Positions 16,964 through 51,112 of a stretch of DNA of 64,000 nucleotides are shown piece after piece. This DNA comes from Balamuthia mandrillaris. Lineage: Eukaryota. The position numbers and the translations under genes are program-made. The notes beneath the pieces are model-generated. The model was not told where the DNA came from. It worked only from the letters and a program-made list of their open reading frames with translations, and did no database searches. Positions within the stretch are counted from its first letter, which is position 1, and the number at the start of each line of letters is the position of its first letter. The stretch lies in the NCBI GenBank assembly GCA_031835245.2, contig JAVKOQ020000111.1, positions 1-64,000 of the forward strand, in the 5' to 3' direction.

Positions 16964-17110
16964 GCCCTTCTTCGTTGTTTCTGTCGGCAAAAATTAGTTT
17001 TTTATGAATTCCGATTGGCGAAATAACCAACACACAAAATTTCTTGCAATTTTTTGAAATATGATTGGATATTGTCGACAGAATTACAAACAGACATAAT
17101 AACAACGGAA

Positions 17111-18709
17111 ATGCACCTAAGAACAAGCAACGCAGCAGAAGAAAGACAAGAACAAGGATGGGAAGAAACAGCGGTGCAGAACTTCAAACGCTTTCTCGGG
17201 ATGAAGACCATCAGTCACGACGGACCCACCAACGGGGCCTACCAAGAGGCCGCTCTCTTTCTCTCCGATTTATGTCGAGAATTGGTCCCCCTTTTCGCTT
17301 CGGCTTCTCCGCCAAAGGATGATTTTGGCAGCGTCCGGGTGTTGGATCCGCTGAGCAAGGGCAAGCCCATCGTGTTGGCCACGTTCAAAGGCAGAGACGA
17401 GAGCCTTCCATCGGTGTTGTTGAACGGACACTACGACGTGGTGGCCGCCATGGACGAGAAATGGGACACCGACCCTTTTGAGCCGTTCGAGAATGAACGG
17501 GGGGACATTTTTGCTCGTGGCACTCAAGACATGAAATGTGTTTGCATCCAGTATTTAGAGGCTCTTCGTTTGTTCCTCTCAGAGAGGCGAAAGCAACAGC
17601 CGCAGCAGCAACAAGAAGAAGAAGAAAGTCGCCCATTCCTTCGGACCATTCACGTGAGCTTTGTTCCGGACGAAGAAATCGGAGGAAAGGAGGGAATGGC
17701 CCTGTTGGTACAGAACGAGAAGCTGATGAAGGAGCTGAACATAGGGGTGGCCTTGGATGAAGGCTTGGCCAGTCCCAACGATGATTTTACCGTGTTCTAC
17801 GGAGAGAGAGCCACGTGGTGGTGTCGTATTCGTGCAACTGGTCCTACCGGTTTGCTTTCTTTCTTTCTTTCTTTCTTTCTTGTCGTTTCTTTCTTTCTTT
17901 CTTCTTCGTGTTCATTGTATTTGACAAATAGGACATGGTAGCAGGCTTGTCAAGAACACGGCTATGGAGAAGCTCATTCGTGTTGTTCAGCACTTTCTTG
18001 ACTATCGTGCAGAACAAGAAGCTCGTTTGGATGGTCATGGGTAAGTCCTTTCCCTTTCTCTGTTCTTGCTGTCTTCGTTCGTTATTCTTTATCCTTAACT
18101 AGATCTTTCTTATGTTATATAAACAAAAGATGTCAGCACGCAGTAGCGAAGAAAGAAAAGCTAGGAGATGTGGCAACCATCAACTTGACCATGCTTAGAG
18201 GCGGAGTGACCACCGATGGTGGCAAAACCTATGCCTACAACGTGATTCCCTCCGAAGCAGAAGCTGGATTCGACATCCGCATTCCCCCTACTATTCCTCT
18301 TCCCGAGTTTGAGGCCATGATTCAAGGCTGGATTGCTTCTTCTCTTTCTTCTTCTTCTCCCTCTTCGAACAAAAAAGAAGATGAAGGAAGCATAACGTAC
18401 GAGTTTGCTCAAAAAGCAGAACGACACAGCATTACAAGCATCGACCCAGAGGAGAATCCATGGTGGAAGACCTTTCACTCCTTCCTCGAGGAAGAGGCCA
18501 AACTCAAAGTGGTTCCAGAGATCTTTCCGGCAGGAACGGACAGCAGGTATTTGCGATGGGCCGACATTCCTTCTTTTGGCTTTTCGCCTATCAACAACAC
18601 CCCTATCCTGTTGCACGACCACAACGAGTTTCTCAACAGAAAGACTTTTGTGAGGGGCGTGGAGATTTATGCTGGCCTTATTGCTGCCTTGGCCAATCAA
18701 CCACAATAA
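17111..18709 (+). CDS. ACY1: Aminoacylase-1 (M20A N-acyl-L-amino acid amidohydrolase)
   Basis: LLNGHYDVV, IFARGTQDMKCVCIQYLEA, FVPDEEIGG, ALDEGLASP, IFPAGTDSRYLR, LLHDHNEFL; two introns. Confidence 0.93.
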
Positions 18710-18942
18710 CGAATAAAGAAAGCAACAGAACGAGAGAAGAGAGGATGGAGAGAAGGGGGAAAAAAAAAACAAGAGGGAAGCAATGTGATGTTAGCGTCAA
18801 GCGCCGCAAAGCCAGGTCCTCCGGTGTTGGTCGCCCAACAGCTCGAAAGATGTGGCTGAGGTGTGTTCTCCGTGTGTGAAATCGAAGTAGATTTGCTGCC
18901 TCTCTTACGCCTCCTCCCCATCCCCAAGGTAAACGAAGTAAA

Positions 18943-19028
18943 TTCAATTATCAGTTGAACGCCTTAACCACTCGGCCACCCCGCCGTTTGTAGTGTAGTG
19001 GCGGGGGTGGGATTCGAACCCACGATGA
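18943..19028 (-). tRNA. Circularly permuted tRNA-like gene, anticodon GAT (Ile): 3' half 19028-18999, 13-nt spacer, 5' half 18985-18943
   Basis: Minus strand reads TCATC-GTGGG-TTCGAAT-CCCAC-CCCCGCC-A / ctacactacaaac / GGCGGGG-TG-GCCG-AGTGGTTA-AGGC-G-TTCAA-CTGATAA-TTGAA; swapped halves give a complete 73-nt cloverleaf with a 7/7 acceptor stem. Confidence 0.75.
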
Positions 19029-19263
19029 AGTTTGAAGGGGAAGGGAGGAAGCTGGGGGCGTAGACGACGCTTTGAACGTGGCATCATCCTAAACTTGCTT
19101 CACTCTCATGAAAAGCAACACCCGTTCACCGAAATAAATACGTGTGCTTTCTGCAGCGGTTTGCATTGTGGGAGCAAGAACAATGTGCATACAGGGGGAG
19201 GAGGGGCTGGCCGGGGTACCCGTTCTCTGAACACAATTATAGGAGGTGCTGTAAAAGGAGGCG

Positions 19264-20691
19264 TTAAATCGATGCCCATGTATCATAAGGACACCCATGC
19301 TTCTGCAACCACTTCAAAGCTTGCGGTTGGTCGTGCCAGACCGCAGCGGAACAAGCGTTTTCGTCCCAAGGACAGCCCTGATCTCTGAGCCATTCCATTA
19401 TCTCGATATGACCCCCGCTAGCAGCACTCGCAAAAGCGTGCACGTCCCAAGGACAGCCATTCTCTCTGGCCCACATGAGCGCTTGTAGGTTTCCCGCTTG
19501 AGCAGCCCAGGAACAGGTGCTCTCATCCCAAGGGCACCCATTCTCTCTGGCCCATTGTAGTACTTTCAAATCTCCGGTCCTTGCAGCCGATGCGCAAGTG
19601 CTCTCATCCCAAGGGCATCCGTTGGCTCTTGCCCACTGTAACACCTCCAATCGTCCACTGCCGGCAGCGTTTTTGCAAGTAAGAACATCCCAGGGGCAAC
19701 CATTTGCATGAGCCCATTGTAGCATTTCCAAATGACCTTGAGCGGCGGCCTCTCCACAAACAAGCTCATTCCAGGGACAGCCGTGCGCTCGCAACCACCG
19801 CAACATGTCCAGCTGACCCTCGACAGCAGCAGAGAGACTCGTCTCCTCGTCCCAGGGATAGCCATGCTCATGCAACCATTGCATAATTGGCAGGTTTGTT
19901 ACCGTGTCAACGCAAACCCACCTGCGAAAAGGGCAGTTGTGCTTGTGTAGATATTCTAGCACATCTATGTGCCCTCCCACAACGGCAGAAGAGAAGCATT
20001 GCTCGTCCAAGGTACAACCCTGCTGGTGAAGCCATTGCAGGACCTCCGAGTGTCCATTTACTGCAGCCCAGGCGCATGTGAGCTGGTTTACGGGGCAACG
20101 TTGCTTGTGCAACCACTTCAACACCTCTAACTGCCCAAACTCTGCAGCGCTATTGGTAGTTTGAGCGTCCAAAGGGAAACCTCGCTCCTTGTGCAGCCAC
20201 TTGACCACCTCCAAGTGACCCCTTCCAGCAGCCGCCGCCACAATAGAGTGGTTCTTCGTGCCAGTCCAACTAAAATCCAAGAGGCTCGCTCGTCCGGATG
20301 GAGCCAGGGCCCGCTTCAGGACCTCCAACTGTCCGTGACGCGCTGCTTCGAGGCATATTTCTTCGTCCCAAGAGAACTGGCCTTGCTCTTGGATCCACAG
20401 GAGACCCTCGATGTTGCCGTTACAAGCAGTTGCTGAGTAGGCTAGTCGTAAGGGGCAACCGTTGGCCACGCACCACTGAAGCAAGGACAAGGAAGCGCTG
20501 CAGGTCGTCATGGCCGCCAGCTTGTGTCGCTGCGAAGCAGGCAAGCACGTAAACCACCGTTTGCAGGTTTGAGCTGCAACCGCTGCGGCACCCTTTGGAA
20601 GCAGCGCCAGCGTGTAGGCTATCAGTTCAGGCGGAAGAAGCTCTTCGACCCAACAGCGCTCCTCTTCCGTTGGTCTTCCCTGCGGCGGCAT
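19264..20691 (-). CDS. Intronless F-box plus ankyrin-repeat protein of the GCPWDE-repeat type
   Basis: N-terminal LLPPELIAYTLALL...AAQTCKRW F-box; more than 10 repeats of CxxAAxxGxLEVLQWARxNGCPWD. Confidence 0.9.
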   Translation of the reverse strand: MPPQGRPTEEERCWVEELLPPELIAYTLALLPKGAAAVAAQTCKRWFTCLPASQRHKLAAMTTCSASLSLLQWCVANGCPLRLAYSATACNGNIEGLLWIQEQGQFSWDEEICLEAARHGQLEVLKRALAPSGRASLLDFSWTGTKNHSIVAAAAGRGHLEVVKWLHKERGFPLDAQTTNSAAEFGQLEVLKWLHKQRCPVNQLTCAWAAVNGHSEVLQWLHQQGCTLDEQCFSSAVVGGHIDVLEYLHKHNCPFRRWVCVDTVTNLPIMQWLHEHGYPWDEETSLSAAVEGQLDMLRWLRAHGCPWNELVCGEAAAQGHLEMLQWAHANGCPWDVLTCKNAAGSGRLEVLQWARANGCPWDESTCASAARTGDLKVLQWARENGCPWDESTCSWAAQAGNLQALMWARENGCPWDVHAFASAASGGHIEIMEWLRDQGCPWDENACSAAVWHDQPQALKWLQKHGCPYDTWASI

Positions 20692-47419: not shown

Positions 47420-50400
47420 GGTAAACGTCCCACCCCACAACGCTAAAAGTCCCACCCCTTCGGTAAACGTCCCACCCCTCAGGTAATTTACCCACCCTAA
47501 TATGTATTTATAACAACCTATTATTTTTGTGCTATTTTGCCACCAAAGCGTGCGCTGGCCATTATTTTAGAGAGTGGAGAAAAGGGATCAGAAAAATCAA
47601 AAATTTATTTTTTAGGGGGCTTTTTTTTTCGTTTTGTTCTTTTGGCCAGTCTTTTCTTTGTCACGCTGGGCACCTTTTCTTCGTTCTGTTCTTTTTTTTG
47701 AGGAGAGAGGAGCTTCACGACCTGTGTTTTCTGGTACCGTGGGTTGGGCTTCAGTTGTCGTTTTGGAGAGAGAGGCTTCCTTTTGTCCACTCGGGGATCC
47801 TGGTAGTTCACCACGGGTGCGACGCCATAGATCTCTTCCGTTTTACAGTTCTTTTGCCATTGAGAGGTACGCTTTGCTTTGCACTCTTCAAAAATGACAA
47901 AAATCAACTTCAGAAAAAGAATCTGCTTGATACAAAAAGTGACAAACATACCACTTTGCGTTTTTGTTTTTTGATTTTGTTGTTTTTTTGGTGCAGCCGC
48001 CGCCACCGCCGCTGCCTTTTCTTTGTTGTTTCAGGTTTTGTTAAATTTGATTGAAAGGTACGTTCGGTTTCTGGTGTTTGTGTGAGGTGTTAGCTAAAAG
48101 TAGGAAAGGAGGGAGAGATTTTGTTTAAAAAAAAGAGATACTAACTTAATTCAAGCAATCATTCTTCTGTGAGTCGCAGGTTGGTTGCTACTTTCGGCCT
48201 CTTTGTTGTATTGCGCGGCCTCCCAGGTGATGACTTCCCTGTAGCATATGCGATTGCTTGTTCTGCTTCTTCCTTGCTAGAGTACTCGATTTTTGGCTCC
48301 ACTGGATGTTGATGCTTTGTTCCTTGATTTTTGTTTGCATTCAGTTTGTCTTTCTCCTTTTCCTTCTCCTCCTCCTCCTTCTCCTCCTTCTCCTCCTTCT
48401 CTTCTTTCTTATTGTTGTGTTCTTCTCCTTCAGAAGTTTCTTCCTCAAGATCTCCGCCGTCGTCCTCACCAAGTTCATCCATCGATGGCTCCTCCAACAG
48501 TAGCAGCGCCTGCTGTTCCTCGTCCTGTTCATCTCCCTCCTCTCCTTCCACATCTTCATCATCAAGGGTAACAGGCGCTACACGTTGCTCCAGGGAGTCA
48601 GTATCATCTGCTTCAACGATGTCATCTTCAACTATTCTTGCCACTTGTGAGGTGCTGCTGTTGGTGCGTCTTGTTTGTCTTTTCAGCCCAAGCTCTAAAA
48701 GGTTCTGATCTGAAAATGTTTTCTGTAGATGAGCAGCAAGTCCAAAAACGTGTTTGCACCTCCTACCATAATACCGAAAGTAAGGACAGGGGCATGAAGG
48801 CAATTCTATAGTCACGTCGTACTCATTCCATTTGAAAACGCCGTCAGCAAGCTCTACAAAATGTGCGTTCAATCCTTCTTCTACCTCTTTTTCCTCTCTG
48901 TCGTTGTTGTTGTCATCGTTTTTGCTGCCATTCTCTATTTCTTCTTTTTCTTTCTGTTTCTCACTCTGTTGGTGCTGTGCCAGCCGCAATCCCTCTTGAT
49001 ATCTCCTCCAAAGCCGGCAAACACCAAGGCTTGGGCGTTGCTGTAGTACATCGATGCGGTTGAGCTCCACATTGTAGCGGCGAAACACATTGTCTGCTAG
49101 CGTTAAGACCAAGTTGTGATCCCCTTTGGTGCCTTTGCAGTGGAAATCACGAAGAATGCTACGAAAGATCGTCTCTGTTGCATTGTTGGTATTCCACAAG
49201 CCCTCTCGGTACCCAGGACGATCAATGCTTTTCCACGTTGATGCCCATGGAGGAGAAAGCCAGTTCTTGTCAAAGTACTGCCAAAAACGGGTAATCCTCT
49301 TTTTTTGGCAATAGTTCTTCAACACTTTTGTTGCTTCTTCCTCTGCATCTTCTGTCATGGCATGTTGCAGTCTTTTTAACAAACCCAATACACATCCATC
49401 ATCCTTCCCTTGTTGTTTGGTATTATTGTTAGTTTCTACTTGTATGAGCAACAACGAGAGGGAGAGAGCAGATGCATGAAAGAGAGAGAACAAACCATAC
49501 TGCGCAACTTTTTTTCTCCACAGTTGTTGTGCATGAAAGTCACACAACACCACCTGAAAGCCAGCACTTGTCGCCCCGTTACGCTCCACCTTGTCTTTGT
49601 CGATCATTACGAAGGGTTGCCACGTAGGTTTTGGGGAGTAGATCGTTGTCGTCTGTGTCTCAAAAAAGTGACGAACAGACGAAAGGAAAAAGCGCACAAC
49701 TGCTGCTCGTTCCTTGCTAGCAACAGCGAAGGCAACAGGCCAGCTCCGTCCCAAGTCATCTTGCACCACCAGTGCCCAAACGGGGGGATGTGACTTGGAT
49801 AGCTTGTAGATGCTGTCCAGGCCGACTACATCCTTACCCCATCGCTGAAGCACAGTGACTGCATAAGGCGCGATCAGAAAAATCATCCATGGCCGACGGG
49901 CCGCCGTGCGATCAAGGATGTACGTTTCACGGCTCTCCAAAGGTGGGAAAAGGATAGTAGAAGCCAGTTCTGGCCGATTCAAGGCCTCTTGGAGGGCTTC
50001 TGCTCTGGTTTGCCCTTTCTTGCCGATTCGCAGTTTTTTCCTTCCGTTGTGGATTACAGTGGCAATCTCCTGCACAGTGGGTACATCCCGAGCATCCTTG
50101 ACCAGCTCACAAGCGCCCCCCAGCAACATTCGTTGCAGCTCGTGCGCCGTCATTGCTCCTCCTCACCCATTCATTCCGTCTTCTTTTGTTCCTTGCCCAT
50201 CCATCTGGCGGAGCCACTGCCGAAGCGCAGGTGTCATAGGCAAAGCGGAAGGCGCGCAAAACCCAGGTCCGTGGCTTTGGGCTTCCTTCTGGATGTAGAT
50301 GTAGGCAGTGTTTAGCTCATCTCTAAACACCACCCAACGGCTTTGTACTTCACAGTCCTTTAGTTTTTTGTTCTTCTTTCCTCTTGCAGGAGGAGCACAG

Positions 50401-51112
50401 GCAAAGCCGCCAGAGCAGTGAAGATTCTCGCTGAGTGCAACCTCAAGGACCCCATTCTTCACCTTCTTGACTTTAGGCGCCACCAACACTTTCACTCCTT
50501 CAAGGGTGGTCCGCGGATTACTAAGCCCCTTCACTCCTGTTCGCTTTGTAAGCCCACGAGTTGATCTCCATTGGACTCGATAAAAGGTCGGAGCATCCTC
50601 TCCACCATTGTACAACCGTGAAAGCTGCTGCAATGGAACCTTTCGTTCAAAAATCCACCCGTAAATCTCGGCAAATCTTTTTTTCTTCGCTTCCATAATG
50701 AGAAAAAAAAAAGGAAAAAACAAAAAGCCAAACAAACAAAAAAGGTGTGTGATGGTTGTGTGTAGCTGTTTCTAGTTGAAAGAAAAAAGTTAAAGAAGAA
50801 GACCTTGTTACAACCCAAGAAAAAGTAACGGTAACGTTATTGAAAAAAAAAGGCGGGAACAAAAAGAAAAGTATGGCGGGCAAGAATGGTGAGAGGAATA
50901 ACCGTTGACCAAGGATACAGCATGCTTTCAATTCCTGACAGTTTCTTTTACAACGGTTATTCCTCTCGCCAAGCAAAGAGAAACACAGTAGCAATGTAAC
51001 GATAGAGTTACTCATAATTCATGTCACCCTAATAGGTTGGGACTTTTACCTGAGGGGTGGAATTTTTATCGGTGGGGTGGGAAGTTTATGGTCGTGGGGT
51101 GGGATATCTACC
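47420..51112. mobile_element. Mutator-like (MULE) DNA transposon with ~85-bp imperfect TIRs
   Basis: Left GGTAAACGTCCCACCCCAC...CCACCCCTCAGGTAA matches the reverse complement of right TTACCTGAGGGGTGG...GTGGGGTGGGATATCTACC; encloses a MULE transposase. Confidence 0.85.
48159..50696 (-). pseudogene. MULE DDE transposase with SWIM zinc finger; in-frame TGA at 50165-50163
   Basis: GLDSIYK (D), FVMIDKD (D), LCDFH (CxxH), NTNNATE (E), SWIM CPCPYFRYYGRRCKH; ORFs 50735-50163 and 50153-48159 share one frame. Confidence 0.85.

What the first reader, a model, noticed from the sequence alone, without database searches (positions are those of the whole stretch)
18943..19028. Circularly permuted tRNA gene: 3' half encoded upstream of the 5' half, split at the variable loop
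Seen on the minus strand: variable loop, T-arm and 3' acceptor strand (TCATC GTGGG TTCGAAT CCCAC CCCCGCC A), a 13-nt spacer, then positions 1-43 (GGCGGGG TG GCCG AGTGGTTA AGGC G TTCAA CTGATAA TTGAA). The acceptor (7/7), anticodon (5/5) and T (5/5) stems are all perfect, and the swapped halves total 73 nt. Known: permuted tRNAs are described in Cyanidioschyzon, prasinophytes, chlorarachniophytes and Thermofilum, with junctions in the D-loop, anticodon loop or T-arm, and they mature through a circular intermediate. I know of no amoebozoan case or of a junction near 43/44. Standard tRNA scanners would miss it.
Basis: partly seen in the sequence, partly recalled or inferred. Interest (0 to 1): 0.9.

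Follow-up and report, generated by a model that had tools for sequence, protein, structure and literature searches.

The report
Back-to-front tRNA inside longer amoeba RNA
The genome of the amoeba Balamuthia carries a tRNA shape written back to front, which likely forms the tip of a roughly 340-base folded RNA made from a few related genes and probably acts as a tRNA mimic rather than being re-joined into an ordinary tRNA.

Summary
On the minus strand a tRNA 3' half (19028-18999) precedes a 13-nt spacer and a 5' half (18985-18943). Swapped, they score as a 73-nt tRNA(GAT), and 0 of 200 shuffles give such a pattern. The window is Balamuthia mandrillaris.

The 'permuted tRNA-Ile matured by ligation' reading is weak. 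There is no full BHB motif, no terminator for about 175 nt, and the D arm is tRNA-Ser type (class II) with no variable arm. Instead the flanks pair into a long rod that enters at the variable-arm position. The unit 19100-18760 folds well (z -3.8) and ends in T10.

RNA-seq reads (one study, about 90 reads, apparently unstranded, not identical to the window) stop at 19097-19098 and show no joined form. They reveal at least two other sequence versions and a different anticodon loop. All 6 differences that fall in helices keep pairing on the minus strand.

Best reading (0.5): a small family of about 340-nt Pol III RNAs with an unligated, permuted tRNA-mimic domain, like bacterial YrlA or two-piece tmRNA. 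Its partner and function are untested.

The parts
18760..19100 (-). Predicted ~340-nt structured RNA (whole unit)
   Evidence: MFE -117.7, z -3.78, 0 of 100 shuffles as good; flank-only shuffles z -3.0, 1 of 200; read depth stops at 19097-19098; 3' end inferred from the T run, not observed
18999..19028 (-). tRNA 3' half: variable-loop remnant, T arm 19023-19007 (B box), 3' acceptor strand 19006-19000, discriminator A73 at 18999
18986..18998 (-). 13-nt loop closing the acceptor stem; CCA not encoded
18943..18985 (-). tRNA 5' half: 5' acceptor strand 18985-18979, class II (Ser-type) D arm (A box), anticodon arm 18959-18943 with GAT at 18952-18950
19037..19052 (-). 5' strand of the inner 16-bp rod entering at the variable-arm position
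   Evidence: pairs with 18925-18909, mean pair probability 0.96-0.98
18909..18925 (-). 3' strand of the inner rod
   Evidence: read difference at 18915 keeps the pair
19064..19100 (-). 5' strands of the outer/terminal helices (19100-19094, 19086-19082, 19078-19064)
   Evidence: pair with 18773-18767, 18790-18786, 18807-18795; probabilities 0.68-0.94
18810..18857 (-). Side hairpin; lies in the region replaced by other sequence in the paralogous reads
   Evidence: probabilities 0.81-1.0; three read differences (18855, 18846, 18828) keep pairing
18934..18942 (-). Motif YUUACUUCG-type, copy 1, directly after the anticodon stem
   Evidence: one of only 2 matches in the window (shuffles mean 0.85, so the count alone is not significant)
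18883..18891 (-). Motif copy 2; kept in both paralogous read groups, whose sequence diverges right after it
   Evidence: (table 7)
18760..18769 (-). T10 run, likely Pol III terminator
   Evidence: only run of 4 or more T in 18943-18701; the window's three ordinary tRNA genes have T runs within 10 nt of their ends
19132..19140 (-). AT-rich stretch about 35-40 nt upstream of the read boundary; candidate TATA element (untested)
   Evidence: sequence only

Best explanation
The permuted tRNA halves likely form the cloverleaf tip of a roughly 340-nt non-coding RNA, probably made by RNA polymerase III from a small gene family, that would work as an unligated tRNA mimic rather than as a precursor of a normal tRNA. 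Shown: permuted order, intact tRNA consensus, Ser-type D arm, reads bounded at 19097-19098, other sequence versions among the reads. Predicted: the 5' and 3' flanks pair into a long rod attached where a class II variable arm would be, and transcription runs from about 19099 to the T10 at 18769, with the T-arm B box about 80 nt downstream of the start. Inferred from known tRNA processing: the 7-bp acceptor stem plus T arm is a substrate for RNase P (cut before 18985) and RNase Z (cut after 18999). That would remove the 13-nt loop, allow CCA addition and leave a two-piece RNA held by the acceptor stem and the rod, as in permuted tmRNA and M. smegmatis YrlA. The tRNA elbow would dock tRNA-recognising proteins and the rod with its repeated motif would bind a second partner. 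The anticodon would not be used for decoding. Likely origin: tandem duplication of a class II tRNA gene with loss of the outer halves.
For: Fold of 19100-18760: z -3.78, and z -3.0 with the tRNA core held fixed. Inner rod probability 0.96-0.98. Read depth is zero in all 5 bins from 19099 to 19160 in 4 of 4 runs, and 3 X14 reads run into adapter at 19097, where the predicted terminal helix begins. The only T run of 4 or more is the T10 at the other end of that helix. 6 of 6 read differences at paired positions keep the pair on the minus strand, against 2 of 6 on the plus strand; chance about 0.03. Two groups of loose ends at 18893/18894 (X13 4+4 reads, X14 3+8) share the motif and then diverge, so other versions exist. 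3 of 3 X14 reads aligned across the anticodon loop read CUUGAGA, not CUGAUAA, with the stem unchanged (my reading of its tables). The D region matches 7 of 8 Ser tRNAs at 19/19 and both Ile(AAT) tRNAs at only 10-11/19. The second-best Rfam hit is YrlA over 19025-18961, same topology (21.5 bits, E 0.061). X14 has depth 4-7 in every bin across D arm, spacer and T arm, and no joint is listed.
Against: RNA evidence is thin: 43, 46, 2 and 0 records laid. The three raw runs come from one study, only 3-5% of each was read, both mate directions occur, and only 2 of 91 reads are 99% or more identical to the window. The strand and the 3' end were not observed, since the stretch laid began at 18800. Depth at 18800-18910 could be the 3' UTR of the convergent aminoacylase gene. 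The plus strand folds as well (-119.9). End pairing is common: 26 of 178 T-run-ended 341-mers have it, and this unit is not among the 12 lowest energies. Read differences may be editing or alleles. Four or five of the Ser tRNAs were fetched by a pattern containing that D arm, so that comparison is partly circular. The YrlA score is far below its cut-off of 69. No relative was found outside the species, so there is no cross-species covariation. No A box fits at the 5' end. Cleavage, CCA addition and partners are untested.
Confidence: 0.5

Rival explanations
1. A true circularly permuted tRNA gene of a new junction type: leader and trailer are cut off at the variable loop, the ends are ligated to a circle, and RNase P/Z open it to give a 73-75-nt tRNA(GAU).
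For: Perfect stems and consensus bases; swapped halves total 73 nt. The 13-nt spacer is within the 1-74 nt range of known genes, and class II tRNAs are often the permuted ones (PMC3978253 section 4). Paired flanks bring the two ends together. A relaxed hBH-like register exists for a 75-nt product.
Against: No h' helix, and a 4-bp central helix is expected by chance among the 352 registers tried (3 found). Most eukaryotic endonucleases cut at 37/38 by a ruler mechanism. The terminator is 175 nt away. The product would be a Ser-type body with no variable arm. GAU is described as prokaryotic apart from C. merolae. Balamuthia has 427-681 ordinary tRNA genes. The anticodon loop differs in the reads and no joint is listed.
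Confidence: 0.15
2. A dead relic of a tandem tRNA duplication, lying between the 3' ends of two convergent genes and read through as UTR; the flanking structure is incidental.
For: Tandem duplication plus loss of outer halves is the standard origin model. Low read depth, strand unknown. The flank helices are partly C/T-rich versus G/A-rich tracts, common in this genome. No relative found elsewhere.
Against: No decay in any stem or consensus base. Differences keep pairing 6 of 6. Several versions are present in RNA, and there is a sharp read boundary with zero depth towards the ankyrin gene. Flank z -3.0.
Confidence: 0.15
3. A tRNA-derived mobile element (SINE-like retroposon, or a MITE whose inverted ends are the paired flanks) that carries a permuted tRNA fragment.
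For: More than one version exists. Inverted complementary flanks. A MULE transposase gene is in the window at 48159-50153.
Against: B box precedes A box. No second copy in 64 kb. No target-site duplication or A tail is visible on the minus strand. The versions share the core but differ in their 3' part, the reverse of what SINE families usually share (recalled). Reads point to few versions, not many.
Confidence: 0.1
4. The amoebozoan member of the TROVE-protein-bound RNAs (vault RNA with TEP1, or Y RNA with Ro60), with a tRNA-like effector domain as in YrlA.
For: Paired 5'/3' ends and a T-run end. Weak YrlA hit. The 8-mer UUACUUCG follows box A in human vtRNA1-1, 1-2 and 1-3 (PMC10087102 passages) and occurs here. 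Dictyostelium has a TEP1 orthologue (PMC13100048 passages). A divergent vault RNA exists in trypanosomes.
Against: Rfam's Vault and Y families gave no hit at E up to 10. The length exceeds the 80-220 nt given for Y RNAs. The box order differs from vault RNA. A vault-like bulged helix at motif 2 is unstable (+0.9 kcal/mol), and a partner arises by chance in about 10% of places. Presence of Ro60/TEP1 in Balamuthia was not established (no hit in one supplementary file each).
Confidence: 0.1

Closest known systems
Circularly permuted tRNA genes of C. merolae, prasinophytes, B. natans nucleomorph, T. pendens (types I-V; PMC3978253)
   Same: 3' half upstream of 5' half, short spacer closing the acceptor stem, B box before A box, no encoded CCA, AT-rich upstream stretch, class II ancestry.
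   Different: Break at the variable region (listed junctions: 15/16, 20/21, 37/38, 50/51, 59/60). No full BHB. Terminator 175 nt away. Flanks form a long rod. Amoebozoan host. For contrast, 4 of 9 metagenome hits were type II tRNA-Ser(GCT) genes with a 15-nt spacer and a nearby T run, matching the M. pusilla row of the table.
YrlA bacterial Y RNA (Rfam RF02553; bioRxiv 10.1101/312249)
   Same: T arm, loop-closed acceptor stem, D arm in that order at the tip of a rod formed by paired 5' and 3' ends. The 7-bp acceptor form in M. smegmatis is cut by RNase P and gains CCA.
   Different: YrlA lacks the anticodon loop and its rod continues the anticodon stem. Here the anticodon arm is complete and the rod enters at the variable arm. 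About 340 nt versus at most about 220. Score 21.5 against cut-off 69. No Ro60 link shown.
Two-piece (permuted) tmRNA
   Same: Permuted gene whose acceptor-closing segment is excised and whose two pieces stay paired without ligation.
   Different: No G3:U70 Ala identity in the window copy, no tag reading frame or pseudoknots recognised (ARAGORN found no tmRNA), nuclear eukaryotic locus, anticodon arm retained.
nev-tRNAs of nematodes (PMC3333845)
   Same: Class II body with A73 and an anticodon that is neither Leu nor Ser; nev-tRNAs are charged with leucine.
   Different: nev-tRNAs are colinear one-piece tRNAs with a 15-16-nt V arm whose tip LeuRS reads. Here there is no V-arm tip and the rod is separated from the core by 6-8-nt linkers.
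Vault RNA
   Same: Paired ends, A/B box sequences, UUACUUCG 8-mer.
   Different: Box order reversed, three to four times longer than the human ones printed, no Rfam hit.

Membership tests
Circularly permuted tRNA gene | 3' half upstream of 5' half, halves rebuild a cloverleaf | tested here: met
Circularly permuted tRNA gene | BHB motif formed by leader and trailer at the junction | tested here: not met
   best register H 4/4, h 3/4, h' 0/4, not at the proposed junction, chance-level; relaxed motifs are known, so not absolute
Circularly permuted tRNA gene | T-stretch terminator close downstream of the 5' half | tested here: not met
   first run of 4 or more T is about 175 nt away
Circularly permuted tRNA gene | Ligated junction / circular intermediate in RNA | tested here: inconclusive
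   no joint among 91 reads, but depth over the core is 0-7 and short modified RNAs are lost
Circularly permuted tRNA gene | Mature aminoacylated tRNA | not testable with these tools
   needs Northern/charging assay
tRNA-Ile | Ile-type body as well as anticodon | tested here: not met
   D region 10-11/19 and T region 11-12/18 to two eukaryote-type Ile(AAT) genes versus 19/19 to most Ser genes
YrlA / Y RNA | T arm - closed acceptor - D arm order at the tip of a terminal rod | tested here: met
YrlA / Y RNA | Rod continues the anticodon stem; anticodon loop absent | tested here: not met
   complete anticodon arm; rod enters at the variable region
YrlA / Y RNA | Rfam score at family cut-off | tested here: not met
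   21.5 versus 69 bits
YrlA / Y RNA | Bound by Ro60; Ro60 gene present | not tested
   no genome held; supplement word searches empty
Vault RNA | Box A + UUACUUCG near the 5' end, box B near the 3' end; Rfam Vault match | tested here: not met
   order reversed; no hit at E up to 10
tRNA-derived SINE | A box before B box, target-site duplication, shared 3' tail, high copy number | tested here: inconclusive
   first three not seen; copy number not measurable here
Telomerase RNA | Template for TTAGGG | tested here: not met
   telomere is TTAGGG; no CCCTAA or AACCC in the unit

The most novel reading that the evidence does not exclude
Balamuthia makes a family of two-piece, CCA-ended, chargeable class II tRNA-like RNAs whose variable arm has grown into a ~250-nt rod and whose anticodon varies between copies (GAU, UGA). 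This would be a nuclear eukaryotic counterpart of two-piece tmRNA/YrlA, possibly leucylated through A73 regardless of anticodon.
Probability: 0.15. Interest if true: 0.92.

Novelty: new variant of a known kind. Interest (0 to 1): 0.72.

Why it matters
If the best reading holds, eukaryotic nuclei contain a YrlA/two-piece-tmRNA-like class of tRNA mimics that tRNA scanners and Rfam cut-offs miss. Its break point (the variable arm, with the anticodon arm kept) is not among the junctions tabulated for permuted tRNAs. It would also be a living example of the proposed route from tandem tRNA duplication to permuted genes, stopped before ligation. The two are separable by one Northern blot and one tRNA-seq run.

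Tried and rejected
No whole genome is held for this window, so copy number, intact parent tRNAs, tRNA-Ile complement and TROVE genes could not be searched. DNA of other strains was not examined.

Sequencing-run search: no RNA holder listed. 12 of 18 rows hold part of the stretch (8 at half the words or more; 4 studies; one organism label).

Relatives: viral contigs, 4 patterns, gave 1 locus, an ordinary Leu-Ser-His tandem array. Genome contigs, 2 patterns, gave 0. Metagenome contigs, 1 pattern, gave 9 loci: 5 tandem arrays with acceptor complementarity 2-3 of 7, and 4 true type II permuted tRNA-Ser(GCT); none of the variable-arm type. All were exact-match patterns, so diverged relatives are missed.

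BHB enumeration: chance-level. Telomerase RNA: rejected. Vault-like bulged helix: unstable. Similarity between the element's 5' region and the tRNA-Cys upstream region: exact 11-mer shared, alignment ranks 2 of 2552 windows, BLAST E 0.68; a lead only. Bacterial promoter/terminator scan: 0 sites, not applicable. Short ATG ORFs over the unit, 47-139 aa, were not searched and are not thought to be genes. Earlier scan notes: 3 look-ups, nothing.

Full report
Setting. The gene next to the finding is 100% identical over 84% of the query ORF to a Balamuthia mandrillaris protein. The element lies in a 555-nt gap between two convergent genes: an M20 aminoacylase ending at 18709 (+) and an ankyrin-repeat ORF ending at 19264 (-). 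The window also has three ordinary tRNA genes, two Gly(TCC) and one Cys(GCA), each followed within 10 nt by a T run.

Observation. Confirmed as written. The swapped halves give a 73-nt cloverleaf that ARAGORN names Ile(GAT); 39 of 49 shifted junctions are also accepted, so the junction is not defined by this test. A custom scan finds this as the only permuted pattern in the window and none in 200 shuffles.

The body is class II, not Ile. Among 31 distinct tRNAs from the window and fetched loci, positions 8-26 match 7 of 8 Ser genes at 19/19 (the eighth 18/19), the four Leu genes at 12-14/19 ungapped, and the two Ile(AAT) genes at 10-11/19. The T region matches all four Leu genes and one Ser gene at 18/18. 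This is partly circular, because the loci were fetched with a pattern holding these arms. The discriminator is A73, which is conserved in Leu and nev-tRNAs whereas Ser has G73 (PMC3333845, passages). So the break sits where a long variable arm belongs.

The flanks form a rod. 19052-19037 pairs with 18925-18909 at probability 0.96-0.98, and further helices join 19100-19064 to 18807-18767. The 341-nt unit has z -3.78 (0 of 100 shuffles) and z -3.0 (1 of 200) when only the flanks are shuffled. Against over-reading this: the plus strand folds equally well, 26 of 178 T-run-ended 341-mers show end pairing, and this one is not among the 12 most stable. The only run of 4 or more T after the 5' half is the T10 at 18769-18760.

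No convincing splice signal. Known eukaryotic permuted tRNAs use a BHB motif, mostly at 37/38, with a nearby T stretch (PMC3978253: abstract, sections 4 part 1, 5, 8, 10 part 1 and passages). Of 352 registers tried, 3 have a 4-bp central helix, and none has both h and h'. The best (H 4, h 3, h' 0) would give 75 nt and needs the anticodon stem melted.

RNA reads (stretch 18800-19160; three raw runs of one study, 3-5% of each read, plus one contig set). 43, 46, 2 and 0 records were laid. Two reads are 99% or more identical, 54 are 95-99% and 35 are 90-95%, so they come from another strain, other copies or both; both mate directions occur. (a) Depth is zero from 19099 to 19160 in all runs, and 3 X14 reads run into adapter at 19097, matching the start of the terminal helix. 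(b) X14 has depth 4-7 in every bin across D arm, spacer and T arm; X13 has none at 18956-18994. (c) No joint passes the tool's threshold of 3 reads. This says little, since a mature tRNA would rarely be captured. (d) Two loose-end groups at 18893 and 18894 (8 reads in X13, 11 in X14) keep the UUACUUCG motif and then diverge from the window. They may be two alleles of one other locus. (e) 3 of 3 X14 reads aligned across the anticodon loop give CUUGAGA, and 3 more clip at 18947 with a consensus implying CUUGAGC (agreement 0.77). No read with the window's loop is listed. The 2+1 read split matches that of the divergent rod letters at 18920 and 18928, so I infer that this loop belongs to a paralog. 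(f) Of 11 substitutions, 6 fall in minus-strand helices and all keep pairing; the other 5 fall in loops (four at 18920-18928, one in the anticodon loop). On the plus strand 2 of 6 keep pairing; chance for 6 of 6 is about 0.03. Editing is not excluded. The 3' end was outside the stretch, and depth below 18910 may include the aminoacylase 3' UTR.

Known analogues. Rfam at cut-off sees only the 5' half. At relaxed threshold the next hit is YrlA, 19025-18961, 21.5 bits, E 0.061, cut-off 69. YrlA has T arm, closed acceptor and D arm at the tip of a terminal rod, lacks the anticodon loop, and in M. smegmatis, with a 7-bp acceptor, is cut by RNase P and gains CCA (10.1101/312249, parts 1-2 of 4). Permuted tmRNAs work unligated in two pieces, and RNase P and Z need only acceptor stem and T arm. 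The element therefore works like these in topology but fails membership of each. The UUACUUCG 8-mer also follows box A in human vault RNAs (PMC10087102 passages), but order, length and Rfam disagree, and a vault-like helix is unstable. Passages of PMC12547018, PMC13100048 and PMC7916137 show a TEP1 orthologue in Dictyostelium and a divergent vault RNA in trypanosomes; the primary trypanosome paper was not seen.

Relatives. Exact-pattern scans found none of this type: viral 1 locus from 4 patterns (a tandem array), prokaryote genomes 0 from 2, metagenomes 9 loci, of which 5 are tandem arrays and 4 are type II permuted tRNA-Ser(GCT). The last group is a positive control that the pattern finds real permuted genes.

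Literature. Searches for permuted tRNA (40 of 74 listed), Balamuthia + tRNA (25 of 55), Ro60/Y RNA with amoebae (1 of 1, 4 of 4, 15 of 1308), tRNA-like/permuted/variable arm (3 of 4) and permuted + Amoebozoa terms (15 of 202) listed no paper describing this element or a nuclear permuted tRNA in Amoebozoa (listings only). Balamuthia annotations report 427-560 (PMC10471605 passages) and 681 tRNA genes (10.1101/2025.02.25.640156 passages). The preprint's supplements could not be seen and may list this locus among its 100 ncRNAs. One supplementary file each of PMC10471605 and PMC8569187 had no TROVE/Ro60/vault hit.

Verdict. A real and unusual feature. Most likely (0.5) it is the permuted tRNA-mimic tip of a ~340-nt RNA from a small family, probably opened by RNase P/Z into two paired pieces and not ligated. 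A true ligated permuted tRNA (0.15), a relic (0.15), a mobile element (0.1) and a vault/Y RNA (0.1) remain possible. Shown: sequence, consensus, Ser-type arms, read boundary, variants. Predicted: rod and terminator. Inferred: polymerase, processing, partner and function.

Noticed in passing
window 12163-12179 and 19098-19114 (both minus): The exact 11-mer TTTTCATGAGA followed by GTGAA lies upstream of the tRNA-Cys gene and immediately upstream of the predicted RNA start; the only two exact matches in the window. The wider alignment ranks 2 of 2552 windows. Possible shared Pol III upstream element or remnant of a tRNA-targeting insertion.
   Followed up: partly
window 10333-10412 and 10728-10807: Two identical tRNA-Gly(TCC) genes in convergent orientation form a perfect 80-nt inverted repeat 315 nt apart.
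   Followed up: no
L004, L006, L009, L010 (around 401-465): [quoted passage not shown]
   Followed up: partly
window 17054-18709: M20 aminoacylase gene whose public record is named 'adenylate cyclase', an apparent misannotation.
   Followed up: no
window 19264-20691: Single-ORF ankyrin-repeat gene (475 aa) of the repeat type I recall from large amoeba viruses; not tested.
   Followed up: no
window 48159-50153; inverted arms 47420-47502 and 51030-51112: MULE transposase/SWIM ORF flanked by an 83-nt inverted repeat (76% complementary): likely a complete Mutator-like element of about 3.7 kb.
   Followed up: no
L001 and L007: Giant-virus contig with a tandem tRNA Leu(TAG)-Ser(GCT)-His array whose D and T arms match those of the element; ordinary array.
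   Followed up: yes
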